UHGV virus genome: UHGV-1967114
Length of the DNA stretch: 35,477 nt
Reading direction: 5' to 3' (one strand)
Origin: a virus
In this document: one piece after another, positions 1,230-33,770 of the stretch
Numbering within the stretch: position 1 is the first letter of the stretch
Layout: each line of letters starts with the position of its first letter
Notes under the pieces: generated by a model
The model's database searches: none
Seen by the model: only the letters and a program-made list of their open reading frames with translations
What the model was told of the DNA's origin: nothing
Program-made: the position numbers and the translations under genes

Positions 1230-1587
1230 TTTATACCTCTTTTGGTATGGACTGACTTTTAGATGCTTACTTTATTGATTTTTGATATTTTTTCAATTAT
1301 TGGGATGAGATTTAGTAATTAAATTAAGAAATTAATGCTTGACAAATTAAAAAGGTACTGTTCCACGGATGAAATAAAGGGAGTTTTCGGCACCCCGGTA
1401 TTTGATGTGCGTGTGAGATTCTAAAACGTGATCACTTCACTTATGGCGCGGTCGCTACGCGACTATTAACCCACTTCCTAACCCTTACCATTACTGGATC
1501 TTTCCCTTCGTTAGAATGCGATTTAGGCGCTTAGATTGTGCGTAAAACCAATAAATAAAATTACGCAAATTTAATGGAGGATAACCA

Positions 1588-2830: not shown

Positions 2831-2857
2831 GGGACTCTTCGGAGTCCCTTTTTTATT
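2831..2857 (+). terminator. Intrinsic terminator (GGGACTC-TTCG-GAGTCCC + T6)
   Basis: Perfect 7-bp stem, UUCG loop, TTTTTTATT; overlaps 3' end of minus-strand gene 2853..3794. Confidence 0.6.
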
Positions 2858-3794
2858 GGCAGTAAGAAAAGTTAGTACCGTACATTTCATCATGAAGCAT
2901 TGCAGCATTGCGTTTCTGTTCTTCTTCCTCGTCTACCGCATCACTAGAAAAATGAGATTTGCCCTTAAAAGAACGAAGCAATTGCAGTGCAGCCATCGGA
3001 TCACGCATCACATCGATTTTCACTTCTACTTCATCATTTGCGGCCTCATCAGCCGCATTTTCAACTACTGCCACCGGAGCAACTTCTTTAGCTTTCAGTT
3101 CTTCAATTTCAGCTTTCTGGGCTTCGATAATCTGGTCTTTTTCTTCCAGTGCAGCTTTCAGTTCTGCGATCTGTGCTTCCAGTGCAGCAAAGCGATCTTC
3201 TACAACAGGAGAAACAGCATTAACCTGTGCTTCCAGTTCCAGAAATGCTTCGCAAGATTCAATACGTTCTTTCTCTTCACCTTCATAAGCAACCAGTTCT
3301 ACAACTTCTTTTTCGGTAGCGTGGCTGTTAAAGAATACAGCAAAGTAAGGATTGCCGGATTTAGTGAAGTTCAGTTTAGCTTTTCCGGTAACTTCTTTAC
3401 GACGACCGAAGGTGATCTGGCAATCAGCGGTATCCTGAAAATCCATGTTAGGAGCGGAAACGATAGCAGTATCACCAGCAATAACCAGGTGGAACAGTTC
3501 AGAAGAGTTCTTAACGGTAAAGGTAACGATGTGGTCTACTGCAACGTCTTTAGCTGGTTTAACGCGGTCGATTGCTTTACGAATGCCGTTAGGCAGTTTA
3601 CCGTCAACACCAAAGCCAGCCGCGATCAGTGCTTCACGATGTGCTTTAAAGCCAGCGAAAGCGGATTTCTGCTGCGCAAAGGAAACATGAGCAACAACTT
3701 TCGGCTGAATCTTCTTGTTTGCTTCGGTGCCAAATTTGATAACTGCTTTAGCGTTGGTTACTTCGTTAGTGAAAAAGTTAGCGGAAAATAACAT
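2853..3794 (-). CDS. Hypothetical early protein with central coiled coil (AALEAQIAELKAALEEKDQIIEAQKAEIEELKAKE) and acidic region; function unknown
   Basis: 313-aa ORF with normal amino-acid composition; overlapping plus-strand ORFs are low-complexity and rejected. Confidence 0.6.
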   Translation of the reverse strand: MLFSANFFTNEVTNAKAVIKFGTEANKKIQPKVVAHVSFAQQKSAFAGFKAHREALIAAGFGVDGKLPNGIRKAIDRVKPAKDVAVDHIVTFTVKNSSELFHLVIAGDTAIVSAPNMDFQDTADCQITFGRRKEVTGKAKLNFTKSGNPYFAVFFNSHATEKEVVELVAYEGEEKERIESCEAFLELEAQVNAVSPVVEDRFAALEAQIAELKAALEEKDQIIEAQKAEIEELKAKEVAPVAVVENAADEAANDEVEVKIDVMRDPMAALQLLRSFKGKSHFSSDAVDEEEEQKRNAAMLHDEMYGTNFSYCQ

Positions 3795-3906: not shown

Positions 3907-4089
3907 TCAGTAAACCTCTGCGGTTATCTTTACTTTAATGTCATACTTCTTTAAGAGTTTGTGGAAGGTTGATTGATCAATACCTTCACCTTTAAACCAT
4001 TCACCAATCACTACATCAGGCGTCAGTTCAAAATAACGCTTTGCCATTTCTAAAACGATTTCACGAGTGAACTTAACAGGTCGTGCCAT
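3907..4089 (-). CDS. Small putative DNA-binding protein (60 aa), member of a 3-gene paralog family sharing motif F.RE...[FY]..LKKY.IKV
   Basis: Strong RBS AGGAGG 8 nt upstream; shared motif with 7207..7467 and both halves of 7470..8045. Confidence 0.55.
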   Translation of the reverse strand: MARPVKFTREIVLEMAKRYFELTPDVVIGEWFKGEGIDQSTFHKLLKKYDIKVKITAEVY

Positions 4090-4124
4090 CTTGAATCCTC
4101 CTAAATCTGGATTAATTATTTCTT

Positions 4125-4147
4125 AAAAAAAAGAGCGTTAACCGCTC
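4125..4147 (-). terminator. Possible leader terminator/attenuator upstream of 3907..4089 (minus strand GAGCG-GTTAA-CGCTC + T8)
   Basis: Short 5-bp stem but followed by 8 consecutive T on minus strand, located between candidate promoter and the gene RBS. Confidence 0.3.
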
Positions 4148-4606
4148 ATTGTTATTTATACGGGGATTGTTTTTTAATTTTTCAACCCCTCACATTTATC
4201 TCTTATATATGTATTTATAACAGAGATATGTTAAAATGTTATTCAGATGTTATCAGGCGTGTTAAATGTGTTAAACCACAGCACGAATTGCTAAAGCGAA
4301 GAACGCGATTTAACCAAATTGATGTATATTTAATCAATTTAGAAAAATGCATAGCACTTTTTGCTAAAGCGGTGAGTATTAATTGAGCTATGAATTGTAA
4401 AGATTTGTTACAGGATTTTCTCTCAGATCCAAACCTTAACAGACATATAACAATTTAACAGGATAATAACAATAGGAAGGAAAATCGGTAAATTTTTACT
4501 TTCAATACAAATATTATAACATATTTATCTCGAATTGTCAATTATACCACTGTTCCTACACAGTGTCAACAAAGGACTTTCAAACCTACACTAGCCCTAC
4601 ACTATG

Positions 4607-4785
4607 AAAATTGCCCCTGAACCAAAATCCCCTAGATTTCACATCCCATTTTTGCCCCTGAAACCCACTATTTTTGCCCCTGAAATTCTGGGAAACAGTG
4701 ATTTTGCCCCTCATTTTTGCCCCTGAAATGCCAATAATTGCCCCTGAAAATCTAATTTTTGCCCCTGAAATTTGCCCCCGAAAAG
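4607..4785 (+). repeat. Array of 8 direct repeats, consensus TTTTTGCCCCTGAAA, spacing 13-41 bp, in a 1.37-kb non-coding region; candidate iterons / protein-binding array
   Basis: Copies at about 4611, 4652, 4674, 4704(variant CTCA), 4717, 4738, 4759, 4772(variant CCCCCGA), all same orientation. Confidence 0.8.
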
Positions 4786-5458
4786 GATTGGTAAGAAAAA
4801 CTCTTTATAAAACATTAAGTTAGTGAGGGCAAAAACGGGGAATTGGGCGTGCATAGATATTATATAACACATTCGCTACGCTCATGTGTAAAACCAAAAA
4901 CAACAAATAACCAAAAAGATATTAGGAGGGCGTAGCCCGACTGCGCGAAGCGCTAACCAATTACTTCTAGTAACACTAATTTAAACTAGATGATACTAGA
5001 TGGTCTTAGAAGGAATTAACTAGTTTGCTCGCTCGCTTCGCTCACTCTCAAACGTCTGCGACGCCACTGCGTGGCATCGAGAATCACTTCTGAAAGGATT
5101 TTCTTGAAAGGGATTTTAAACTAGTTACTAACTGATTCTAGTAAACGAACGAAGTGAGTAACAATCACTTTCTAGAAAGGTATTGGTATCCCTTCGGGAT
5201 TGCAACCTTCGGTTGCTAAATTTCTTCCTGATTATTATTTCTTCAAAAGAAAGATTCTTATATTCTAAAGATACTTCTTCGTTTTGGTGATGATTTAATC
5301 AAAATCTATGAAGGAGGGCTTTAGCCCGACTGAATCCAATCACCTTTCAAGTACAGACCAGTTTTGGACTCTACCAGATCACTCTTTTCATAATAACAAG
5401 AATTTTCTCTTTATAAATAATATTAGATTGATTCACTTTCTTTTAGAGGATTTCCACT

Positions 5459-5926
5459 ATGAACCATAAAATGACTACCACTACTCCTTTTATCCTTCTG
5501 GGTCTGGATTCTGATAGCTTCCACAATGACAAGTTAATGAAGATGTTCCGTGAACGTGGTTATAACATCCTTTTCAACTCTGATGAATCCCATTTCTCTA
5601 GTGCATGGTATGCGTTTTGCCGTAATAAGAAGCCGACCATTGTTGTTAACGTCTTCACCGATGAAGAACGCTTAAAGTACCAGAATCTACCAGCAATTAT
5701 TGTTCGTGATGATCTGCCGTTTCAAGTCCGTTCCGGTGACATTGATCTGGGTAGCTTCGTTACTGTCTATGAACTGGATGAAGCAATGTTTAACTACGGT
5801 AAAGAAACCGCTCAGGAAGCCCCAGAAGAAGATGAACAAGACGAAGATGACGACGACTACGCACCAATCTGTTTTTCTTCTCAGAATGGCTTCTACGGTT
5901 ACGACGAAGGCTTAGATATGCTGTAA
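5459..5926 (+). CDS. Hypothetical early protein with highly acidic C-terminus (EEDEQDEDDDDY)
   Basis: 155-aa ORF, RBS AGAGGA; acidic tail. Confidence 0.6.
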   Translation: MNHKMTTTTPFILLGLDSDSFHNDKLMKMFRERGYNILFNSDESHFSSAWYAFCRNKKPTIVVNVFTDEERLKYQNLPAIIVRDDLPFQVRSGDIDLGSFVTVYELDEAMFNYGKETAQEAPEEDEQDEDDDDYAPICFSSQNGFYGYDEGLDML

Positions 5927-5948
5927 GTTAGGTCAACCCTTTGGTGTC

Positions 5949-5990
5949 TTGTCAAGGGGTATTGACAAAAATTTCTAACTTTTTTATGAT
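5949..5990 (+). promoter_or_regulatory. Sigma70-like promoter (TTGACA 5962-5967, 17-bp spacer, TATGAT 5985-5990) overlapped by inverted repeat TTGTCAA-N6-TTGACAA (5949-5968); candidate operator
   Basis: Near-consensus -35/-10 with optimal spacing; palindromic half-sites; third TTGACAA copy at 5999-6005. Confidence 0.5.
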
Positions 5991-6048
5991 TATCGCACTT
6001 GACAACTATGAATCTATTTGACCTAGATTTGTAAATGGAATGTTAATT

Positions 6049-7127: not shown

Positions 7128-7135
7128 TAATTTTT

Positions 7136-7164
7136 GCCCCTGAATTTCAGGGGCTTTTTGTTTT
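7136..7164 (+). terminator. Intrinsic terminator built from one copy of the TTTTTGCCCCTGAA motif paired with its inverted partner (GCCCCTG-AATTT-CAGGGGC + T-run)
   Basis: 7-bp GC stem, 5-nt loop, TTTTTGTTTT immediately downstream of stop at 7127. Confidence 0.65.
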
Positions 7165-7206: not shown

Positions 7207-7467
7207 TCAAACTCCGTTGATTGGTACAACCTCTCCACCGTCTACACGTATAAAGAACTCGACATTAAGTTTCTTCATACTTTTATAAAACTGGGCGGTG
7301 GAGATGCCCAGATCGTTTAATACTTTCTCTCTGCTTTCTTTACCCTTGCCAGCTTTGTAAAACTCGTAGCAAATGTATGCCAGTTGTTCACGATTAAAAC
7401 GGGCAGGACGACCGCGAGTAGCTTTAGTAGTCATAGTCATTTTCTCCAAATTAAAGTGAATGTTCAC
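7207..7467 (-). CDS. Small putative DNA-binding protein (86 aa), paralog of 3907..4089
   Basis: Shared motif ...FYKSMKKLNVEFFIRVDGGE.. with the C-terminal half of 7470..8045. Confidence 0.55.
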   Translation of the reverse strand: MNIHFNLEKMTMTTKATRGRPARFNREQLAYICYEFYKAGKGKESREKVLNDLGISTAQFYKSMKKLNVEFFIRVDGGEVVPINGV

Positions 7468-7469
7468 CT

Positions 7470-8045
7470 TTATTTAGAGGACTTAGATTTTATAGGAAAA
7501 AGTTCTCCATCGTCAACTGACATAAAGAACTCAACCTTAATCCCGTACTTCTTCAACCGTGAATAATATGTACCCCGACTTATATCAACCTTGCGAAGCA
7601 CTTCAAAGAAGGACTTAGGATCGTTGTAATAGTGGCTGTACTTCACGTTAGCGAGTTCAACGAATAGTTCTCTTGTATCACCATAGTCTTTCTTAAAAGC
7701 CACGTTACGATAGCGTGTAATGGCATGATTCAATCTCTTCTGTTTAAGCACTTCCCTGATCGGTGTCCACTGCAACCGATAGATAGGACCGTCATCTACT
7801 CGATAGAATCGCTTAATGTCAAAATCAAACCACTCACGGACTCGCTGAAACTCTGTCTGTGATGTGCGATGCTTCTTAAAGAAGTTATGAATATCGGTAT
7901 ACCCATTATCACGATACAACTCGATTAAAATCTGTTTAGCTTCCTCACGACTAAAGCCAGATGTTGTGTAGTCGGTCTTTAAGTGCTTATGTTTTACTGG
8001 CAAACGATATTCATGATCGGTACAAGACAAGACAAGACAAGACAA
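7470..8045 (-). CDS. Protein with tandem duplication of the same HTH-like module (191 aa); start codon uncertain (only TTG candidates, inside the pentanucleotide repeat)
   Basis: Two internal copies of the family motif ending VDDG; no in-frame ATG near 5' end. Confidence 0.45.
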   Translation of the reverse strand: MSCLVLSCTDHEYRLPVKHKHLKTDYTTSGFSREEAKQILIELYRDNGYTDIHNFFKKHRTSQTEFQRVREWFDFDIKRFYRVDDGPIYRLQWTPIREVLKQKRLNHAITRYRNVAFKKDYGDTRELFVELANVKYSHYYNDPKSFFEVLRKVDISRGTYYSRLKKYGIKVEFFMSVDDGELFPIKSKSSK

Positions 8046-8056
8046 GACAAGACAAG
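8022..8056. repeat. Pentanucleotide microsatellite (ACAAG)x7 (CTTGT on minus strand)
   Basis: Seven perfect tandem units read directly from the sequence. Confidence 0.9.
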
Positions 8057-8185: not shown

Positions 8186-10099
8186 ATGAAACTGATTTCT
8201 AATAAGGCCAAATTAAAAAAGATTCTCAGAAATGCAGCCAAATATATTACGCCACCGCCTAAACTCCTTCCTTCTGAATGGTGCGAAGCGAATCTAACGC
8301 TAGTCGATGGTCCTCGTGCTGGGGATAAAGTTAAATTACTGTCATTTCAGAAAGGCATGATTGATGCTCCTTTCCTTGAGAAGAAAAAGAAGTACGTTTT
8401 TTGTACGAGTGCGCAGATCGGAAAGACGACCATCATGTCAGGGATCATGTTTAACCAGATGGCAAACGATCCGTGCAATATCATTATCGGGCAAAGTACC
8501 GCTAAAGAAGTGGCTATGTACTTGAATACTAAGATCCGTCCTTCTATTGAAGCATGTCCGGCATTACAGGAAGTGGTAACAGATAAGAATGATCGTAATG
8601 CGGTAAACAACAATAACCAGATTCAGCTAAAAACAAACCATTTCCTTTACATGGTTTCTTTGACCAGTCCTTCAAGTTTGCGTGGGCGTACTGCCAAGTT
8701 AGGGATTGTAGACGAATGCGACGCAGCAACAATCACCGAAGAAGGTTGTCCGGTGGCACTAACTGCAAACCGTTTAACTACCTTTGGTGATGAAGCTCGA
8801 TTGATTGTTTCTAGTACCCCAACCAATAAGCTGGGAATCATTAACCAGCAATGGTTATCAAGTGATATGCGTATGTTTTTTGTTCCGTGTCCTCATTGCG
8901 GGGAACACCAGGTGATCGAGTGGGAAAACGTTCAATTTGAATGGCGTAACATCGATGGTAAGAACTTACCCGATCCTGATACCGCTCGTTATATTTGCCC
9001 CCACTGTAAGCAATCATGGACAGAAGGGGAACGAATCAGGGCAGTAGCGCAAGGCGAGTGGAGAGCAACCCGTGAAAGTGAAGTAGCAGGATTCTGGATC
9101 AGCCGTCTGTATTCACCTTTCAGTAGTATCCGCGCTTGTGTGGTTGATTTTAGTCATGCGTGGCAATCCTTTGATTTACAATCATTTTATAACACAGTGT
9201 TAGGTAAGGTATACGACGATCAGGACACGGCAGTAGAAGCAAATGAACTGGAACAACTCAAAACAGATGTTTCTATCGAGAATATCCCTGATGACGTGAT
9301 TTTCTTGTGTGCGGGTACTGACCAGCAATTAGATCGCGCAGAAACTACGATCATGGGCGTGGCAAAGGATAAGATTTATATTCTGGATCATCGCAGCTTT
9401 TACGACCATAACTGTGAACGATATGAATCTCCTGTATGGGACAGATTAATCAACTTCCATAAAACCAAATTTACTACTGTATCGGGTGATCGTGTTCCTA
9501 TGCTCGCCAGCTTCCTTGATACATCGAACGGTCGATTCACTCAAGCCGGATACCGTATTTGCGGTGGTAAGTGGAAGAACTTACACGCAATCAAAGGTAG
9601 TTCATCTGGTACTGCTCCAATCATTCCGGTGAAACCAACTACCACGGGTGGTCATGAATTGCTTATGTTGGGCGTTAACGTGGGTAAAACGGCTATTCGT
9701 GAGCTATTAACACGCAACTTGAAAGAAAACCCTCATATTGGTTTAGAGATATCAGAAACCGTTCCTGATGATTATCTCGATCAGCTTTTGAGTGAATCCA
9801 TCAAGCGTACTGTTACTGGAACACGTTGGGTAAAAAATCCAGGTGCGACACGAAACGAGGCGCTCGACTGTCTGGTTTATAGCTATGCGGCTTCTCGCTA
9901 TGTTCTTTCAAAAATGTCATGGGATAAGCTCATTGCAATGAAAGAAAAGCTGAATCGTGAACCAGAAGCAACCGTAGAAGCTCCTAAATCACATTCTAAC
10001 GAGCAAATCGAAGAAACTAAGCCAATCACTCATCACAAACCTAATCGTCGTCCTATGGCGCGTCCTGTGCGTCGTGGTGGGTGGGTAAATAACTTTTAA
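8186..10099 (+). CDS. Terminase large subunit (lambda gpA-like ATPase/nuclease)
   Basis: 637 aa; Walker A-like SAQIGKTT and Walker B LGIVDECD; CPHCGEH...CPHCKQ motif; position upstream of portal. Confidence 0.85.
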
Positions 10100-16041: not shown

Positions 16042-19000
16042 ATGCAATCAATCCAATTTAAACGCACACAAACGGCTGGTAAAAAACCAACGCCGGAACA
16101 ATTACAGGTCGGTGAAATCGCTATTCAGATGGCAGACCATGTAATTTACACCAAAGACAAAAATAACGCAGTAGTTCAAATCAGCGTTTCCCCAGAAAGT
16201 CATAATGCTTTAAACACGAAAGTAGACAATAACAAAACTAGCACTGACCGTGTTATTGCTTCCAACAAACAAGAGGCCGCTAATAATCTGGCTAGTGCTA
16301 AAGCTGAACTGAATCAGACTATTACCACGAAAGATACAGCGACCAATAAGCGCATTGATGCTACCAACACCACTGTTAGTAACTTAACCCAGACAGTTAC
16401 GGCAAATAAAACCGATGCCGACACTAAGATCAATAACCTTACGGGGACCGTATCTGCGAATAAGACCGCAATTGAAAGAACCGTTGCCGCAAACAAATCT
16501 GATGCAGATAGCAAACATGCAGCTTTAACGAAAACGGTCACTGACAATAACACCGCGATTAACAACAAGGTTAATACCACTAACACCAACGTTAGCAACT
16601 TAACTAAAACTGTTACTGCAAATAAAACCGATGCAGATAACAAAATTTCTAGCTTAACTAGCACGGTTGCAGCTAACAAGACAGCGATCGAAAAGACTGT
16701 TTCCGACAATAAGAAAGACGCGGATACTAAGATTACCAATCTTACTGGCACTGTTAATAGCAACCATACCGCAATTAACAACAAGGTAGACCAGAATAAA
16801 TCTTCTACTGATGCCGCAATTGCAGCCGCTAACAAACGAATTGATGGTATTGAAGGTAGCAATGATGCTCTTTACATCAAGAAGAATACCAATACTAAGC
16901 ATGGTGGGTATCTGTTAAGCAAGACAGCTAACTATCTGGAAGACCAGACATCACGAGATCTTAACTACTTTGGTGCTTTCCGTACCAATGGTCAAGATGG
17001 ACTCATGGATCTAACTCTTAACGTTCCTCACTCTTCCGGTAAAGCGCACGGTCGCGGATTTACTTTCCGTTATGCATCTGGTGGATCTCGTGTTGAAACC
17101 TATGGTTTTGATAGAGAAGGACAGAAGAACTTTAGCTATAAGATGTATCACGAAGGTGATAAGCCGACTCCTGGCGAGATTGGTGCATACACCAAAGCCG
17201 AAGTTGATAAGATGTTTGTTAAAAACGTCGTTATGTCTGTTCCCAATTCTAGCGAAAACGTATCTGCATATTTCAAATTGGCAACCGCAACAATTCCACA
17301 AAACGGGCGTAGTGTGTTTTTCCGTATTCATGGTGGTAATGGTTACAACGTTACGGCATATGATCAGGTTGACGTAGTAGAAATTCTTCTGCGTAGTGGT
17401 AACGATAGACCTAAAGGTCTTAACGTAATTGCATACCGTAGAAATACAAACAAAGATTTTGAGGTATTTGCTGTCAATACTTCCGGTGATAACTATGATA
17501 TCTACGTGAAATATCAGCGTTATACCGATAACGTTATTGTCGAATATGGGAAATCTGTTTATGTAAGTTTGACGGTTTATGATACGCCGGAAGCCACGTT
17601 AATTAAACCTTCCGTTGGTGTTATCGGTGGTCGCAACGTAACTCTTTTTAATACTGAAAATAAACGTGGTGTGTTAAGTTTTGATGATAACACACAAAAC
17701 AGCTATGACATTGTTCATCTAAGTAATGATAAAGGTACTGGACGGAAATATATTCGTAAATTCCGTAGCAACTATAACGAAATGGTTTGGCATGAAACCG
17801 TTCAGGGTGCTGTATATCGTCTTGCTACTGGTGCTACAGATTCTACAGAAGTTATTAGAATTGATTCTAATAGTGCAATACCGGGTAATTATAAAGGATA
17901 TGTAATTACTGGTAAAATGGAATTGCACGGTAGTGGTAATGCGATGACTTTACATCGACAGACTGGTCAAGCTGCATATATGGCGTGGTGGGATCGTCGT
18001 GATGGTAAAAACCAACGTAGTGGTTATATCGGTCATGCGGATGGTACTAGTGATGGTTTTGTGTGGCGTAATGATGTTGGTGCTAACTCATTTGATTTGG
18101 AAGGTAGTGGACAAGTAAATTTGACTACAGGAAAAACAAAAATTGTATATACCAATGGTCAATATTATTCCGCTAACGCTGATGCATTCCGTATGATTTA
18201 CGGTAAGTATGGTGCATTCTGGCGAAATGATGGTGGTAAAGTTTATCTGTTGTCTACTGCCGAAAATGATAGATTTGGTGGTTGGAATACATATCGACCT
18301 TTTATCTACGATCTTACTTCCGGTAACGTTCAATTAGGTGGTGATGGAAACGAAGATGTATTAACTCTAGAACGCGCAAGCAAGGCCGCTCGATTCTCTG
18401 GCAACGCTTACATCAAAGGTCAACATTTAACATTTGATGCTGGTGCTGGACAATCCCGCGATTACTTCCGGTTTAACCATTGGGGCGATAGTAATAACGC
18501 TCGCGATAACATCCTACAGATTGAAGACAGTCAGGGTGCACACTTTACCACTGAACGCGCTATGGGTACTGGCAATATCACAGCACGTTTTAAAGGCTTC
18601 GTGCGTGTAGAATCCGGTGAGATTGCCTTTGATGCTAATCGTGGATCTGCGTCTCAATTTACCTTACATACATGGGGTAACGAGCAACGCAAACAGGTTT
18701 TTGAATGTAAGGATGCTACTAGTTATCATTGGTATACCGAACGTACAAACGGTGGAACTGGTCCTATCCTGTTCTCTGTTGCTGGTACATTAAAAACTGC
18801 GAGCAATATACAGGTTGGCGGTGCTGATATTGAGTTTCGTCGCAGTGGTAATAAGCATTTATGGTTTAGAGATCCGAACGGTTTAGAATTAGGTTTGATG
18901 TACTGCGATGATGCTGGTGTTATCCGCTTCCGTGGTCAGAAACAAGGTCAAACTTGGAAACTTGCTGATAAAATGATTCATCTTGAGGCGGGGACTGTCG

Positions 19001-19644
19001 GCGGGTCTGATAAAGGTTTGATTCGTGGTAATGTTGCTGGTGGTAGCTGGGCTAGCTGGCGTGATCGTTCTGCCGGAATCCTCGTAGACTGTCCGAACTC
19101 AACCGATTCCGCTCATAACATCTGGAAAGCGACTCATTGGGGAAAATATCATATTGCGGCAATGGGTGTGCATGTTCCTAGTGGTACTATTACCAATGCT
19201 TTAGCTCGCCTAAACGTTCACGACGCCAACTTTGACTTTAACGCTGCGGGTGATTTTAGCGCAGGTCGTAACGGTAGCTTTAACGATGTTTACATTCGCT
19301 CTGACTCCCGTTTGAAGATTAACAAGGAAGAATTACAGGACGGTGCATTAGAGAAAGTAAACTCACTGAAAGTCTACACCTACGATAAAGTTAAATCTCT
19401 TTCCGATGACACGGTGATTAAACGCGAAGTAGGTATTATTGCTCAGGATCTGGAAAAAGTATTGCCGGAAGCAGTAGGTATTCAATCCACAGAAGATCCA
19501 GAACAACCGGAAGCAATCAAGACTATTTCTAACTCTGCTGTTAATGCCTTGATTATTAAAGCTATGCAGGAAATGGACGCCAAATATAAAACACAGATCG
19601 AAGCATTACAGAAAGAAATTGCCGAACTGAAAGCAACTAAATAA
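16042..19644 (+). CDS. Tail fiber protein (1200 aa) with N-terminal repetitive shaft and C-terminal intramolecular chaperone (peptidase S74-like) domain
   Basis: Repeats TVTANKTDADTKI...; C-terminal YIRSDSRLKINKEELQ...LKVYTYDK matches endosialidase-type chaperone signature (recollection). Confidence 0.75.
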   Translation: MQSIQFKRTQTAGKKPTPEQLQVGEIAIQMADHVIYTKDKNNAVVQISVSPESHNALNTKVDNNKTSTDRVIASNKQEAANNLASAKAELNQTITTKDTATNKRIDATNTTVSNLTQTVTANKTDADTKINNLTGTVSANKTAIERTVAANKSDADSKHAALTKTVTDNNTAINNKVNTTNTNVSNLTKTVTANKTDADNKISSLTSTVAANKTAIEKTVSDNKKDADTKITNLTGTVNSNHTAINNKVDQNKSSTDAAIAAANKRIDGIEGSNDALYIKKNTNTKHGGYLLSKTANYLEDQTSRDLNYFGAFRTNGQDGLMDLTLNVPHSSGKAHGRGFTFRYASGGSRVETYGFDREGQKNFSYKMYHEGDKPTPGEIGAYTKAEVDKMFVKNVVMSVPNSSENVSAYFKLATATIPQNGRSVFFRIHGGNGYNVTAYDQVDVVEILLRSGNDRPKGLNVIAYRRNTNKDFEVFAVNTSGDNYDIYVKYQRYTDNVIVEYGKSVYVSLTVYDTPEATLIKPSVGVIGGRNVTLFNTENKRGVLSFDDNTQNSYDIVHLSNDKGTGRKYIRKFRSNYNEMVWHETVQGAVYRLATGATDSTEVIRIDSNSAIPGNYKGYVITGKMELHGSGNAMTLHRQTGQAAYMAWWDRRDGKNQRSGYIGHADGTSDGFVWRNDVGANSFDLEGSGQVNLTTGKTKIVYTNGQYYSANADAFRMIYGKYGAFWRNDGGKVYLLSTAENDRFGGWNTYRPFIYDLTSGNVQLGGDGNEDVLTLERASKAARFSGNAYIKGQHLTFDAGAGQSRDYFRFNHWGDSNNARDNILQIEDSQGAHFTTERAMGTGNITARFKGFVRVESGEIAFDANRGSASQFTLHTWGNEQRKQVFECKDATSYHWYTERTNGGTGPILFSVAGTLKTASNIQVGGADIEFRRSGNKHLWFRDPNGLELGLMYCDDAGVIRFRGQKQGQTWKLADKMIHLEAGTVGGSDKGLIRGNVAGGSWASWRDRSAGILVDCPNSTDSAHNIWKATHWGKYHIAAMGVHVPSGTITNALARLNVHDANFDFNAAGDFSAGRNGSFNDVYIRSDSRLKINKEELQDGALEKVNSLKVYTYDKVKSLSDDTVIKREVGIIAQDLEKVLPEAVGIQSTEDPEQPEAIKTISNSAVNALIIKAMQEMDAKYKTQIEALQKEIAELKATK
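16366..16797 (+). repeat. In-gene tandem coding repeats (two ~216-nt units with ~33-nt subrepeats) in tail fiber shaft
   Basis: Near-identical stretch ACTGTTACTGCAAATAAAACCGATGC at ~16390 and ~16611; explains spurious minus ORF 16314..16862. Confidence 0.6.
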
Positions 19645-31779: not shown

Positions 31780-32052
31780 CTATGATTTATTTTCTTGTTC
31801 TATGAAAATCTTTCTCACCTCATCAGAATAAATGTCTAGTGATTCCTCATAACATTTTCTGTATTCACCGTAATTACTGGTGGTCTTTTGACATAGCAAT
31901 TTCAATGTTTTATGTGCTCCATCAATGAAAGCATCTTCTCTATAGGTTAGCGGTCTACGCATTTCTTGGTCTACGGTTGCCAATGCCAGGCAAGAATTCA
32001 TAGATAAAATCAAACCTAAAATCTTAATCATCTTCATTAGCTTAAATTCCAA
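31780..32052 (-). CDS. Small secreted protein (signal peptide MKMIKILGLILSMNSCLALA), Cys-containing
   Basis: Hydrophobic N-terminus with ALA cleavage-like site; overlaps 3' end of recombinase gene. Confidence 0.5.
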   Translation of the reverse strand: MEFKLMKMIKILGLILSMNSCLALATVDQEMRRPLTYREDAFIDGAHKTLKLLCQKTTSNYGEYRKCYEESLDIYSDEVRKIFIEQENKS

Positions 32053-33721
32053 ATTCCTGTAATGGACCTGGTATTTCTTCTTCTGGTTTCCAGTTCTTAT
32101 CTGTCAGCATGTCTAAACATGGATGCAGAACAAGCCCGTTACTCTCCAGAATCTGCCTATCATTGATAGTCTTCAAATCAATGAAGATCCGGCCTTTCCT
32201 CGGTCCTCTTGAATTTTCTATTACAACTCTCTGGGTCTTGCCATCGATGTATTCCAATACAAACAAGTTTTTGTACTTGTCAATCCTGCTACACCCGATC
32301 CGTTTTAGAGCTTGCTTAATCTTAAACCGGACCTTAATGCGATCCTCGTTGTAAACATCTTCTAAATCAAATTCTGCGAGCTTCTCCCAGCCTTGAGAGT
32401 CAACAGAATACATTTCCTCTTCTGCCATCTTAATTTGATTGTAGAGTGTTTCACGCTCGCTATTGAGGGTAGTAATCTGATCGGCTAGCTCCTTCGTTGC
32501 TCCTGTCATAGCAGAAAGGGTAATCAGGTTATCAATCTTGCGTGATATTTCATCAATCTGTACTTTCAAAGCCGGAACCGGATTAGCCTTATCTTCAGCA
32601 ATCCAGATTTTATCAGCCAGCAATTGCAATACAGCTTTCTCTAATTGGTCGCCGCGAAAACTCCAGTTTGTATGCACACATTCAATACGACTAGAGCGCA
32701 TTGCATCGCATGAATAACGATATTGGTTAGGCCGTCTGTTTGTTCCTTTCACCTTAACCATAGCGGAACCGCAATGTTCACATTTCAATAGACCAACACC
32801 ACTAAGCAAGGGAATAGGTTTAACTTCTTCTTTGTCTCCAAAGTTACATGCTCTAACACCAATGCTTTTCTTAAGGTGATAAAACTCAGCGTCATCTAGC
32901 ACACGAGGATAATAATCCTTTAACTCATACTTAACGCCATCTACAGAGATTTCCTTGATACCAATCAAAGCGCGGGTATGGAACAACCTTTCAATCATTG
33001 CCCGTGACCAGTTTGAATGCCTCTTGTGACTTGCGGCTGGTGGTGGTGTGTATGTCGCGTTAAGGTGATCCAGTATCTCGGCGGTTGACCGTCCATTCCT
33101 GCGTAATTCCACAACTTCCTGAACAATAGGGAAGAAGACCGGATGAGGAAGCACATAACCAGATGTGGTATCAGTCCACCACATATTCTTTCCAATTTCC
33201 TCGATTGCAACAGCCGGATTTTGTGGATTTTCTTGATGAGCTTTAATCTTAATCAGTGCGCTTGAGTTAGTACGATTGCGCTTAGTCTGGCTTTCCTCAT
33301 TACCACGGATGAATAAAAGGATGGAGAACATCAGGTCCATCGGGTTAGCGGTAACAGTATCCAGCGAGTAGATCTTGTTATCCATGCCAGTAACAATGGT
33401 TATCCCCCTACGGATGATTGAAAGGAATAACTCCTGCGCACTGACAATATCGGCACGGGATAAACGGTCCAAGTTTTCGATGAATAGCCAGCTACCAACA
33501 GGAACGGATCTACCTATTGCATCAAGGAAACGAGATAGCGCCCCTGTTTTGGAGTTAGCACCCTTAAACGCAGATACACCCAGATCCTGATAATCATTTA
33601 CCAGTTCAAGGTCATACTTTACCGCAATCTCTCTAGCCATCCTGATTTGTCGTTCATAACTCGAACCATCATTCTGACGCATAGACGAGAAGCGAATATA
33701 CGAATACAGTTTAGTTTTCAT
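32042..33721 (-). CDS. Large serine recombinase (probable prophage integrase); start taken at ATG 33721
   Basis: N-terminal resolvase-type motif YIRFSSMRQ (catalytic Ser), central recombinase region, zinc-ribbon CEHCGSAMVKV...YRYSCD...IECVH; 559 aa. Confidence 0.85.
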   Translation of the reverse strand: MKTKLYSYIRFSSMRQNDGSSYERQIRMAREIAVKYDLELVNDYQDLGVSAFKGANSKTGALSRFLDAIGRSVPVGSWLFIENLDRLSRADIVSAQELFLSIIRRGITIVTGMDNKIYSLDTVTANPMDLMFSILLFIRGNEESQTKRNRTNSSALIKIKAHQENPQNPAVAIEEIGKNMWWTDTTSGYVLPHPVFFPIVQEVVELRRNGRSTAEILDHLNATYTPPPAASHKRHSNWSRAMIERLFHTRALIGIKEISVDGVKYELKDYYPRVLDDAEFYHLKKSIGVRACNFGDKEEVKPIPLLSGVGLLKCEHCGSAMVKVKGTNRRPNQYRYSCDAMRSSRIECVHTNWSFRGDQLEKAVLQLLADKIWIAEDKANPVPALKVQIDEISRKIDNLITLSAMTGATKELADQITTLNSERETLYNQIKMAEEEMYSVDSQGWEKLAEFDLEDVYNEDRIKVRFKIKQALKRIGCSRIDKYKNLFVLEYIDGKTQRVVIENSRGPRKGRIFIDLKTINDRQILESNGLVLHPCLDMLTDKNWKPEEEIPGPLQEFGI

Positions 33722-33730
33722 ACCATTTCC

Positions 33731-33770
33731 AAACAAAAACGCCCCTACCGCGTATTATAACGATAGGGGC
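33731..33770 (-). terminator. Terminator-like hairpin between secreted-protein gene and recombinase gene (minus strand)
   Basis: GCCCCTA...TAGGGGC stem with 16-nt loop, followed on minus strand by GTTTTTGTTT. Confidence 0.45.

What the first reader, a model, noticed from the sequence alone, without database searches (positions are those of the whole stretch)
4607..4840. Array of eight TTTTTGCCCCTGAAA direct repeats in a gene-free region: candidate iteron, pac or centromere-like site
Eight same-orientation copies of a 15-bp motif occur within ~180 bp, spaced 13, 21-22, 30 and 41 bp apart. An inverted partial copy lies at ~4823-4834, and a further copy forms half of the terminator hairpin at 7131-7154. 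Such arrays are typical of replication-origin iterons, terminase small-subunit binding sites or partition sites. No replication initiator gene is recognisable, so the binding protein is unknown; candidates are the HTH paralogs, the Rha-like protein or the Nu1-like protein.
Basis: seen in the sequence. Interest (0 to 1): 0.65.

Follow-up and report, generated by a model that had tools for sequence, protein, structure and literature searches.

The report
Phage repeat array with cognate protein
The eight repeats are real and mark a docking platform on the DNA of an unstudied E. coli prophage, but the protein they match is a neighbouring 313-residue protein of unknown fold, not the candidates first proposed, and the pair most likely forms the phage's replication origin and initiator.

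Summary
Eight same-strand copies of TTTTTGCCCCTGAAA lie at 4608-4783, in a 1.37-kb gene-free gap of a 35-kb serine-integrase prophage inserted in E. coli hicB. An inverted copy follows a 39-bp A+T-rich spacer.

Related prophages in E. coli, Salmonella, Providencia and Proteus keep the same gene order. At this position they carry five different repeat motifs, usually phased at about 10.7-11.2 bp.

The motif follows one thing only: the N-terminal ~165 residues of the 300-380-residue protein encoded two genes to the left (window 2853-3794, minus strand). The Nu1-like small terminase, all three HTH paralogs, Rha and the 155-residue protein each occur as the same allele with different arrays. The terminator "copy" at 7131 is unrelated.

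The partner protein has no sequence or fold relatives in any library searched.

Function is inferred, not shown. I favour an iteron-type origin with its initiator (about 0.45), then an operator or immunity array (about 0.25). A centromere or a packaging site is unlikely. This is a new variant of a known kind.

The parts
4608..4783 (+). Array of eight direct repeats, consensus TTTTTGCCCCTGAAA. The 15-mers lie at 4608-4622, 4649-4663, 4671-4685, 4701-4715 (degenerate), 4714-4728, 4735-4749, 4756-4770 and 4769-4783 (degenerate).
   Evidence: Conserved with the same spacing in 33 E. coli genomes and in Salmonella. Best period 10.7 bp, R=0.81.
4784..4822 (.). A+T-rich spacer of 39 bp between the last direct copy and the inverted copy. 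By my own count from the sequence it is 77% A+T, against about 59% for the window. It contains AGAAAAAC-YTTATAAAACAT, conserved in Salmonella type-A loci.
   Evidence: Sequence; window composition; alignment of the array's right flank in win, L032 and L037.
4823..4838 (-). Single inverted copy of the repeat. GAGGGCAAAAA on the + strand equals TTTTTGCCCTC on the - strand. It faces the array.
   Evidence: I7, I8. It is a full inverted copy in L005, L006 and L008, and is conserved in Salmonella L032, L037 and L036.
2853..3794 (-). Gene for the 313-aa protein ('BIG'), the inferred cognate binder of the array. Architecture: N-terminal beta-rich domain, long coiled coil, acidic stretch, then a conserved C-terminal motif.
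   Evidence: It is the only gene whose type tracks the array type in 25 E. coli loci and across genera. No Pfam, PHROG, NCBIfam or PDB sequence hit. AF2 model. No fold match.
3300..3794 (-). Part of that gene encoding the N-terminal ~165 residues, the inferred specificity (DNA-recognition) domain.
   Evidence: The motif follows the class of the N-domain and is independent of the class of the C-terminus. pLDDT is 73-92 over residues 1-150. hhalign detects homology between classes only in the C-terminal half.
4555..4604 (+). Three copies of the alternative (type B) repeat CCTACAC(TA), at 4555-4561, 4582-4593 (a full AAACCTACACTA) and 4596-4604, immediately left of the array. They appear to be a remnant of a type-B array at a recombination joint.
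   Evidence: Sequence. The type-B array occupies the equivalent position in L027-L029 and L031. The remnant travels with the window-like hth60 module.
4513..4569 (-). Context: two tandem perfect-consensus sigma-70 promoters (12/12, with TG) firing leftward, away from the array, toward hth60 and BIG.
   Evidence: An equivalent near-consensus promoter lies 30-540 bp from the array in L029, L009, L032, L034 and L033.
3907..4089 (-). Context: the 60-aa HTH gene between the array and BIG. It belongs to an independently exchanged module and is not the array-specific binder.
   Evidence: The same allele (WP_021515494.1) is found with type-A arrays (L009-L011) and with a type-B array (L028).
4868..5225 (+). 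Possibly part of the same functional unit: a conserved run of hairpins to the right of the array. It includes an invariant GACTG followed by GCGCGAAGCGC.
   Evidence: The block 4605-5126 aligns as one unit with Salmonella type-A loci at 75-78% identity. Compensatory changes. Fold z-scores of -2.8 and -4.6.

Best explanation
The array is the multi-site docking platform for the phage's own 313-aa protein (2853-3794, minus strand). That protein's N-terminal ~165-residue domain reads the 13-15-bp repeat on double-stranded DNA. The sites lie on one face of the helix, so many protein molecules, held together by their coiled coils, can assemble into one nucleoprotein complex. I infer that this complex is the phage's replication origin. 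In this reading the repeats act as iterons, the protein as the initiator, the 39-bp A+T-rich spacer closed by an inverted repeat as the likely melting site, and the conserved hairpin block to the right as a possible priming signal. Host enzymes would supply the rest, because the phage has no recognisable helicase, primase or loader. Shown here: the array, its conservation, its phasing, and its exclusive covariation with the N-domain. Inferred: physical binding (my estimate about 0.8) and origin function (about 0.45 overall).
For: (1) Exclusive covariation in E. coli. In 25 loci, TTGCCCCTGAA arrays always accompany the 313-aa type (91-100% identical). CCTACACTA arrays always accompany a 328-351-aa type that is 27-28% identical. 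The hth60 gene lying between array and BIG recombines freely. (2) The same rule holds across genera. N-domains 75-76% identical (Salmonella P0135, P0136) have the same motif. N-domains 54-55% identical (P0123, P0141) have TTTTTGCCCCT without GAAA. An N-domain 36% identical (P0133) has TTTTTGTCCGTGAAA. The Providencia class-B N-domain has CCTACAC. The Proteus class-C N-domain has CTAGGGAT at an 11-bp period. All of this is independent of which of two C-terminal classes is attached. (3) The best period is 10.7-11.2 bp in 8 of 9 arrays, with R of 0.81-0.95. This points to recognition of B-form DNA on one face. (4) The layout is origin-like: 7-17 direct repeats, an A+T-rich spacer, an inverted copy, then a GC-rich hairpin block. 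It sits upstream of the promoter that drives the binder's operon. (5) Parsimony. The whole 35-kb prophage lies in the window. None of the 20 early- and right-arm proteins scanned has a match to a replication protein. The three HTH paralogs and the promoter-embedded palindrome CACTGT-N6-ACAGTG can account for transcriptional control.
Confidence: 0.45

Rival explanations
1. Operator or immunity array. The 313-aa protein is a repressor or other transcription regulator. By coating the array it silences or insulates the divergent early operons, and the motif types are heteroimmunity types.
For: Covariation of a DNA-binding domain with its sites is also the signature of immunity modules. The array lies between divergent transcription units. 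No CI-like repressor is recognisable among the 20 early- and right-arm proteins scanned. From my own knowledge, not tested here: asymmetric, directly repeated operators exist in phi105, P1 C1 and L5 gp71.
Against: The distance from the array to the only strong promoter nearby varies from about 30 to about 540 bp between relatives, and that promoter fires away from the array. No promoter-like site lies inside the array. The binder is transcribed from a near-perfect consensus promoter behind a Cro-sized HTH gene, which looks like an early lytic operon. Three HTH paralogs and promoter-embedded palindromes are better candidates for the switch. A copy number of 7-17 is high for operators.
Confidence: 0.25
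2. Centromere-like or pairing site. The protein bridges arrays through its coiled coil in order to segregate, anchor or pair phage genomes, in the manner of ParR/parC or TubR/tubC.
For: Arrays of 11-bp-phased direct repeats bound by a small dedicated protein resemble parC and tubC, most clearly in the Proteus array. The binder has a long coiled coil.
Against: No ParA, ParM or TubZ-type NTPase was found among the 20 early- and right-arm proteins scanned against Pfam. The element integrates with a serine integrase, and all E. coli copies are chromosomal, with none on plasmids.
Confidence: 0.07
3. Packaging recognition site (cosB or pac), bound by the Nu1-like small terminase at 1588-2142.
For: The phage has a gpA-type large terminase and a Nu1-like small subunit. 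Terminase small subunits do bind repeated sites.
Against: TerS is 88-100% identical across array types, and identical in PI7 (type A) and C325 (type B). Its N-terminal DNA-binding region is conserved even in Providencia and Proteus, whose arrays differ. The array is 2.5 kb from terS and 3.4 kb from terL. A conserved GC-rich block GCGGTCGCTACGCGAC lies about 125 bp upstream of terS, the position cosN has in lambda.
Confidence: 0.03
4. The array is bound by one of the HTH paralogs (60, 86 or 191 aa) or by Rha.
For: These are the only recognisable DNA-binding proteins near the array.
Against: For each of them, the same allele (93-100% identity; 90-94% for hth191) is found with both type-A and type-B arrays. 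Examples are hth60 WP_021515494.1, the hth86 allele in L019, L023-L025 versus L027, and Rha in L025 versus L027 and in L029 versus the window.
Confidence: 0.05
5. The repeats act in RNA, as a protein- or ribosome-binding leader or sponge transcribed rightward into the structured region.
For: All copies share one orientation relative to the flanking genes. A conserved structured element follows on the same strand. A weak rightward promoter-like site precedes the array in L029.
Against: Spacing in multiples of about 10.7-11.2 bp is a property of duplex DNA, not of RNA. No good rightward promoter lies upstream in the window. There is no Rfam match.
Confidence: 0.05

Closest known systems
Iteron-type replication origins with a cognate initiator: lambda O with ori-lambda; plasmid Rep_3 proteins such as F RepE, P1 RepA, pSC101 RepA and R6K pi; SaPI Rep with its ori
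   Same: Multiple direct repeats at a spacing of about two helical turns, next to an A+T-rich stretch and an inverted copy. They lie close to, and upstream of, the gene for a protein whose specificity domain co-varies with the repeat sequence among related elements. Related elements carry different, exchangeable specificity types.
   Different: The protein matches no Rep_3, lambda O, RepL, primase-helicase or HUH family by Pfam, PHROG, NCBIfam, PDB sequence or fold search. There are no DnaA boxes. The array is not inside or directly abutting the gene; an independently exchanged HTH gene and a 500-bp leader lie between. Replication activity is untested.
Type II and type III plasmid centromeres (ParR with parC; TubR with tubC)
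   Same: About ten helically phased direct repeats coated by one dedicated small DNA-binding protein.
   Different: No motor NTPase gene was found, the element is integrated, and the binder is three times larger and has a coiled coil.
Lambda cosB R sites bound by Nu1
   Same: The phage has a Nu1-like and gpA-like terminase pair, and cosB consists of repeated Nu1 sites.
   Different: TerS does not covary with the array, the array is remote from the terminase genes, and a better cos candidate lies upstream of terS.
Asymmetric, directly repeated phage operators (phi105 repressor, P1 C1, mycobacteriophage L5 gp71 stoperators, Mu c). This comparison rests on my own knowledge.
   Same: Non-palindromic sites in one orientation, recognised by a phage-specific protein, with specificity types that differ between related phages.
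   Different: Here 7-17 sites are packed into 120-260 bp at a variable distance from promoters, not overlapping promoters or dispersed through the genome.

Membership tests
Iteron-type replication origin | Three or more direct repeats of about 13-22 bp, spaced in register with the DNA helix | tested here: met
   Eight copies, best period 10.7 bp. Eight of nine related arrays peak at 10.7-11.2 bp.
Iteron-type replication origin | A cognate, element-encoded protein whose specificity co-varies with the repeats | tested here: met
   Motif type follows the N-domain class of the 313-aa protein in 25 E. coli loci and in 7 loci from other genera. Physical binding was not tested.
Iteron-type replication origin | An adjacent A+T-rich unwinding element | tested here: inconclusive
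   The 39-bp spacer is 77% A+T and conserved among type-A loci. It does not reach the 82.5% threshold used, and it is not conserved across array types.
Iteron-type replication origin | Host-factor sites (DnaA boxes, IHF) as in most theta plasmids | tested here: not met
   The only DnaA-box matches with one mismatch or fewer lie at positions 16-17 of the gap in four loci, about 340-550 bp from the arrays. The window's gap has no IHF consensus; the four matches in L032, L034 and L036 lie outside the arrays. Lambda ori also lacks DnaA boxes, so this feature is not universal.
Iteron-type replication origin | The initiator belongs to a known Rep family | tested here: not met
   No hit in Pfam, PHROGs, NCBIfam or PDB sequences. 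No fold match in PDB or BFVD. No tblastn hit in 50,697 phage records or (with the Providencia homologue P0134) 72,556 plasmid records.
Iteron-type replication origin | Supports autonomous or induced replication | not testable with these tools
   This needs cloning on a conditional replicon, or marker-frequency analysis after induction.
Terminase recognition site (cosB or pac) | Recognised by the small terminase, so the sites change when the TerS DNA-binding domain changes and stay the same when it does not | tested here: not met
   An identical TerS occurs with two different arrays, and the TerS N-terminus is conserved across four genera with five motifs.
Terminase recognition site (cosB or pac) | Lies next to the cleavage site and the terminase genes | tested here: not met
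   The array is 2.5 kb from terS and 3.4 kb from terL. The candidate cosN is at 1448-1463.
Plasmid-type centromere (parC, parS or tubC) | A partner NTPase motor (ParA, ParM or TubZ) encoded with the centromere-binding protein | tested here: not met
   No such domain in any of the 20 early- and right-arm proteins scanned against Pfam, including every gene next to the array and BIG. The structural genes between 10676 and 29506 were not scanned.
Plasmid-type centromere (parC, parS or tubC) | The element is maintained extrachromosomally | tested here: not met
   It is integrated in hicB by a serine integrase. All 63 E. coli places are chromosomal and there is no plasmid match.
Repressor-operator (immunity) module | The sites overlap or abut the promoters they control | tested here: not met
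   The distance from array to the leftward promoter is 30-540 bp in different relatives, and there is no promoter-like site within the array. A rightward promoter could not be located, so this test is partial.
Repressor-operator (immunity) module | The binder is expressed in the lysogen and confers type-specific immunity | not testable with these tools
   This needs lysogen RNA-seq and superinfection tests.

The most novel reading that the evidence does not exclude
The 300-380-residue proteins form a previously unrecognised family of phage replication initiators, or master DNA organisers. A shared effector half (coiled coil, acidic stretch, C-terminal motif) is combined with non-homologous, swappable N-terminal DNA-reading domains of unknown fold, and each N-domain travels with its own array of helically phased repeats. 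The family would work without DnaA boxes and without any phage helicase, loader or primase. It may use the adjacent conserved hairpin block (invariant GACTG followed by GCGCGAAGCGC) as a host-primase entry site.
Probability: 0.3. Interest if true: 0.7.

Novelty: new variant of a known kind. Interest (0 to 1): 0.55.

Why it matters
This prophage lineage occurs in E. coli, Shigella, Salmonella, Providencia and Proteus. At least 58 of 5,426 complete E. coli genomes carry it. It has no cultured relative in the phage collection searched and no recognisable replication or immunity protein among the early genes.

Pairing the array with one orphan protein gives the first functional handle on its early region. 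It also makes a concrete, cheap prediction: five protein-motif pairs that should bind only their own repeats.

If the pair is an origin and initiator, it adds a new initiator family and new sequence-specific DNA-binding folds. It also yields a set of orthogonal protein-site pairs that could be used as tools.

The work also corrects the packaging reading and points to the probable cos site elsewhere.

Tried and rejected
1. Rfam, at gathering and at permissive thresholds, and tRNA search found nothing relevant in the gap.
2. Nucleotide search of the phage collection found only Krischvirus mosaics: the LprI gene, the tail fibre and an 80-nt intergenic piece. No relative of the array appeared. The plasmid collection gave no match.
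3. The first homology search with the 313-aa protein returned only 98-100% identical E. coli and Shigella proteins among the 120 listed.
4. The exhaustive representative search showed a tiny family of 12 clusters.
5. The genome-contig scan with alignment A1, and viral-contig scans with P0123 and P0127, found nothing.
6. A literature search for the motif returned only unrelated primer sequences. A search on hicB prophages led to an unrelated LF82 paper.
8. A profile search with the C-terminal domain alignment found nothing.
9. DnaA boxes, IHF sites, GATC clusters and LexA boxes showed nothing near the arrays.
10. The terminator hairpin at 7131 was rejected as a satellite binding site because it does not follow the array type.
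11. The small ORFs across the array were rejected as coding because of the single-base spacing differences in relatives.

Full report
WHAT THE WINDOW IS

The window is a complete prophage of about 35 kb. It is 100% identical over 4000-6000 to the chromosomes of E. coli PI7 and 24AR0357. It is inserted in the antitoxin gene hicB, whose two halves flank it.

It encodes the following:
- a large serine integrase (32042-33736, minus strand);
- a lambda gpA-type large terminase (8186-10099);
- a portal, a capsid, a tail, a T4-like tail fibre and lysis genes;
- a Nu1-like small terminase at 1588-2142 (phrog_57).

None of the 20 early- and right-arm proteins scanned matches a replication protein or a CI-type repressor. 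No cultured phage in the collection is close; the best portal match is 36% identical.

THE OBSERVATION

The array is real. The exact core TTGCCCCTGAA occurs six times on one strand between 4611 and 4769, against 0.011 copies expected for the whole window. With two degenerate copies there are eight, spaced 41, 22, 30, 13, 21, 21 and 13 bp.

A 39-bp spacer follows. By my count from the sequence it is 77% A+T. After it comes one inverted copy at 4823-4838.

The array sits in a 1.37-kb gap (4090-5458) between a 60-aa HTH gene on the minus strand and a 155-aa gene on the plus strand. Only 40-53-aa ORFs overlap it. Relatives differ by single-base changes in repeat spacing, so it is not coding.

Thirty-three of 5,426 complete E. 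coli genomes carry the array at 91-100% identity, with 7-10 copies and the same spacing pattern.

SURROUNDINGS

Immediately left of the array are two tandem perfect-consensus sigma-70 promoters on the minus strand (4569-4541 and 4541-4513). They fire away from the array, toward the 60-aa HTH gene and the 313-aa gene behind it.

To the right, from 4868 to 5225, lies a run of hairpins that is conserved in Salmonella relatives. It shows compensatory base changes, and its G-U pairs favour the plus strand.

WHO BINDS IT

The decisive evidence is comparative.

Within E. coli. A second group of about 25 E. coli prophages (for example L027-L029) has the same gene order. At the array position they carry 8-10 direct copies of AAACCTACACTA, spaced in multiples of about 11 bp.

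I tabulated alleles in 25 loci. Most early genes appear as the same allele with both array types: the small terminase, the 60-, 86- and 191-aa HTH paralogs, Rha, and the 155- and 51-aa proteins. Two examples:
- TerS WP_052915405.1 is identical in PI7 (type A) and C325 (type B).
- The HTH WP_021515494.1 occurs with type A in L009-L011 and with type B in L028.

Only the large gene left of the HTH gene follows the array. The 313-aa form (91-100% identical) is found with every type-A array. A 328-351-aa form, 27-28% identical to it, is found with every type-B array. The HTH gene lies between this gene and the array and recombines independently, so the association survives recombination.

Across genera. 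Homologues found through a distant family member were placed in their genomic context. The synteny holds in Salmonella, Providencia and Proteus, and every gap contains an array. The motif follows the N-terminal ~165 residues:

| N-domain (identity to the window's 313-aa protein unless stated) | Source | Repeat motif |
|---|---|---|
| 75-76% | Salmonella P0135, P0136 | TTTTTGCCCCTGAAA, same as the window |
| 54-55% | Salmonella P0123, P0141 | TTTTTGCCCCT, without GAAA |
| 36% | Salmonella P0133 | TTTTTGTCCGTGAAA |
| class B (66% to the E. coli type-B protein) | Providencia P0134 | CCTACAC |
| class C | Proteus P0138 | about 15-17 copies of CTAGGGAT at an 11-bp period |

Two different C-terminal classes are combined freely with these N-domains. 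Profile comparison detects homology between classes only in the C-terminal half. The protein is therefore modular: a variable reader domain joined to a shared coiled-coil and acidic effector half.

DNA or RNA. Eight of nine arrays have a best period of 10.7-11.2 bp with strong concentration, R of 0.81-0.95. This is the signature of sites on one face of duplex DNA and argues against an RNA role.

Limits. The AF2 model gives a confident beta-rich N-domain and a long helix. It has no significant match in PDB or BFVD. Binding is therefore inferred from covariation and is not shown.

WHAT IT IS NOT

Packaging site. This reading fails the covariation test. It is also remote from both terminase genes. 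A conserved GC-rich block, GCGGTCGCTACGCGAC at 1448-1463, lies about 125 bp upstream of terS, the position cosN occupies in lambda.

Centromere. This is unlikely. The element is integrated, its DNA is never found on plasmids, and none of the 20 early- and right-arm proteins scanned is a partition NTPase.

The terminator copy at 7131-7160. It travels with the Rha allele, not with the array type. It is present in L028 (type B) and absent from L037 (type A).

WHAT IT MOST LIKELY DOES

Two readings fit the covariation: iterons with an initiator, or operators with a repressor. I favour the origin reading (about 0.45) for four reasons.
- The layout is that of iteron origins: many direct repeats, an A+T-rich spacer, an inverted copy, then a GC-rich structured block, all upstream of the binder's own operon.
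- The nearest strong promoter lies at a variable distance of 30-540 bp and points away, so the array is not a promoter-proximal operator.
- The binder sits behind a Cro-sized HTH gene under a near-perfect promoter. This looks like an early lytic operon.
- The phage needs an origin and an initiator, and this is the only candidate pair. The HTH paralogs and promoter-embedded palindromes can cover regulation.

Against the origin reading:
- There are no DnaA boxes, no IHF consensus sites at the arrays and no GATC clusters.
- The protein resembles no known initiator.
- There is no helicase loader.
- There is no functional test.

The operator or immunity reading keeps about 0.25.

NOVELTY

Arrays of binding sites that co-vary with a cognate protein are a known kind of system. 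What is new is the protein family, which has no relatives in Pfam, PHROGs, NCBIfam, PDB, 50,697 phage records or, for its Providencia homologue P0134, 72,556 plasmid records. Also new are the exchange of apparently non-homologous reader domains together with their arrays, and the lineage itself. I classify the finding as a new variant of a known kind.

Noticed in passing
window 4868-5225 (+): A conserved series of hairpins with compensatory changes across E. coli and Salmonella relatives. Elements: CACAT..ATGTG; UAGGAGG followed by GGGCGUAGCCC (with a G/C swap in L036 and L034); an invariant GACTG followed by GCGCGAAGCGC; a long stem CTTCTAG..CTTAGAAGG; GACGCCACTGCGTGGCATC; and two UUCG hairpins. 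G-U pairs favour the + strand. There is no Rfam match. It could be an RNA gene, the 5' leader of the 155-aa gene, or a single-strand priming signal belonging to the origin.
   Followed up: partly
window 4513-4569 (-) and 4133-4147 (-): Two tandem perfect-consensus sigma-70 promoters, with an 18-bp palindrome CACTGT-N6-ACAGTG in the spacer of the first. A terminator-like hairpin plus T-run lies just upstream of the ribosome-binding site of the 60-aa HTH gene. The pairing of promoter and terminator recurs in all genera examined. It may be an attenuated leader or a non-coding RNA of about 400 nt.
   Followed up: partly
window 1448-1463: A GC-rich block, GCGGTCGCTACGCGAC, about 125 bp upstream of the Nu1-like small terminase gene. 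It is conserved in E. coli and Salmonella relatives within otherwise variable DNA. It is a candidate cosN.
   Followed up: partly
window 5228-5309: This 80-nt stretch matches unannotated intergenic DNA of Krischvirus (RB49/JSE-like T4 relatives) at 76-80% identity, at 1-3 places per phage genome. The prophage also shares its LprI-family gene (435-1229) and its tail-fibre gene (16042-19644) with these lytic phages at 80-90% nucleotide identity.
   Followed up: partly
window 4925-4943 and 5313-5332: A 20-nt element, AGGAGGGC-loop-GCCCGACTG (a Shine-Dalgarno-like sequence plus a hairpin), occurs twice, 389 bp apart. The second copy overlaps a 53-aa ORF start.
   Followed up: no
window 8024-8056; L028 2720-3775: Two simple-sequence repeats in regulatory genes. 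One is an (AAGAC)x6 run at the 5' end of, or upstream of, the 191-aa double-HTH gene. The other is an expanded (Ala-Tyr)n tail on the type-B 351-aa protein in strain C325. Either might act as a slippage switch.
   Followed up: no
window 3907-4089, 7207-7467, 7470-8045 (all -): The 60-aa and 86-aa proteins and both halves of the 191-aa protein appear, by eye from the translations, to be paralogous small HTH domains with a TetR-N-like RGRPxKF...GIS..TFY..KKY pattern. They have no family match. An octamer, ACTGTTCC, is shared by the spacer of the leftward promoter (4549-4556) and the promoter region of terS (1358-1365). It may be their operator half-site.
   Followed up: no
window 4555-4604: Three copies of the type-B repeat (CCTACAC) sit at the left edge of the type-A array. 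They occur only in loci with the window-like HTH module. This suggests that the arrays themselves are recombination joints between phage types.
   Followed up: partly
L001 24187-26213 (E. coli PI7) versus window 8186-10099: In strain PI7 the large terminase gene is annotated as frameshifted with an internal stop, and it is about 113 bp longer than the intact gene in the window. That copy of the prophage may be defective.
   Followed up: no
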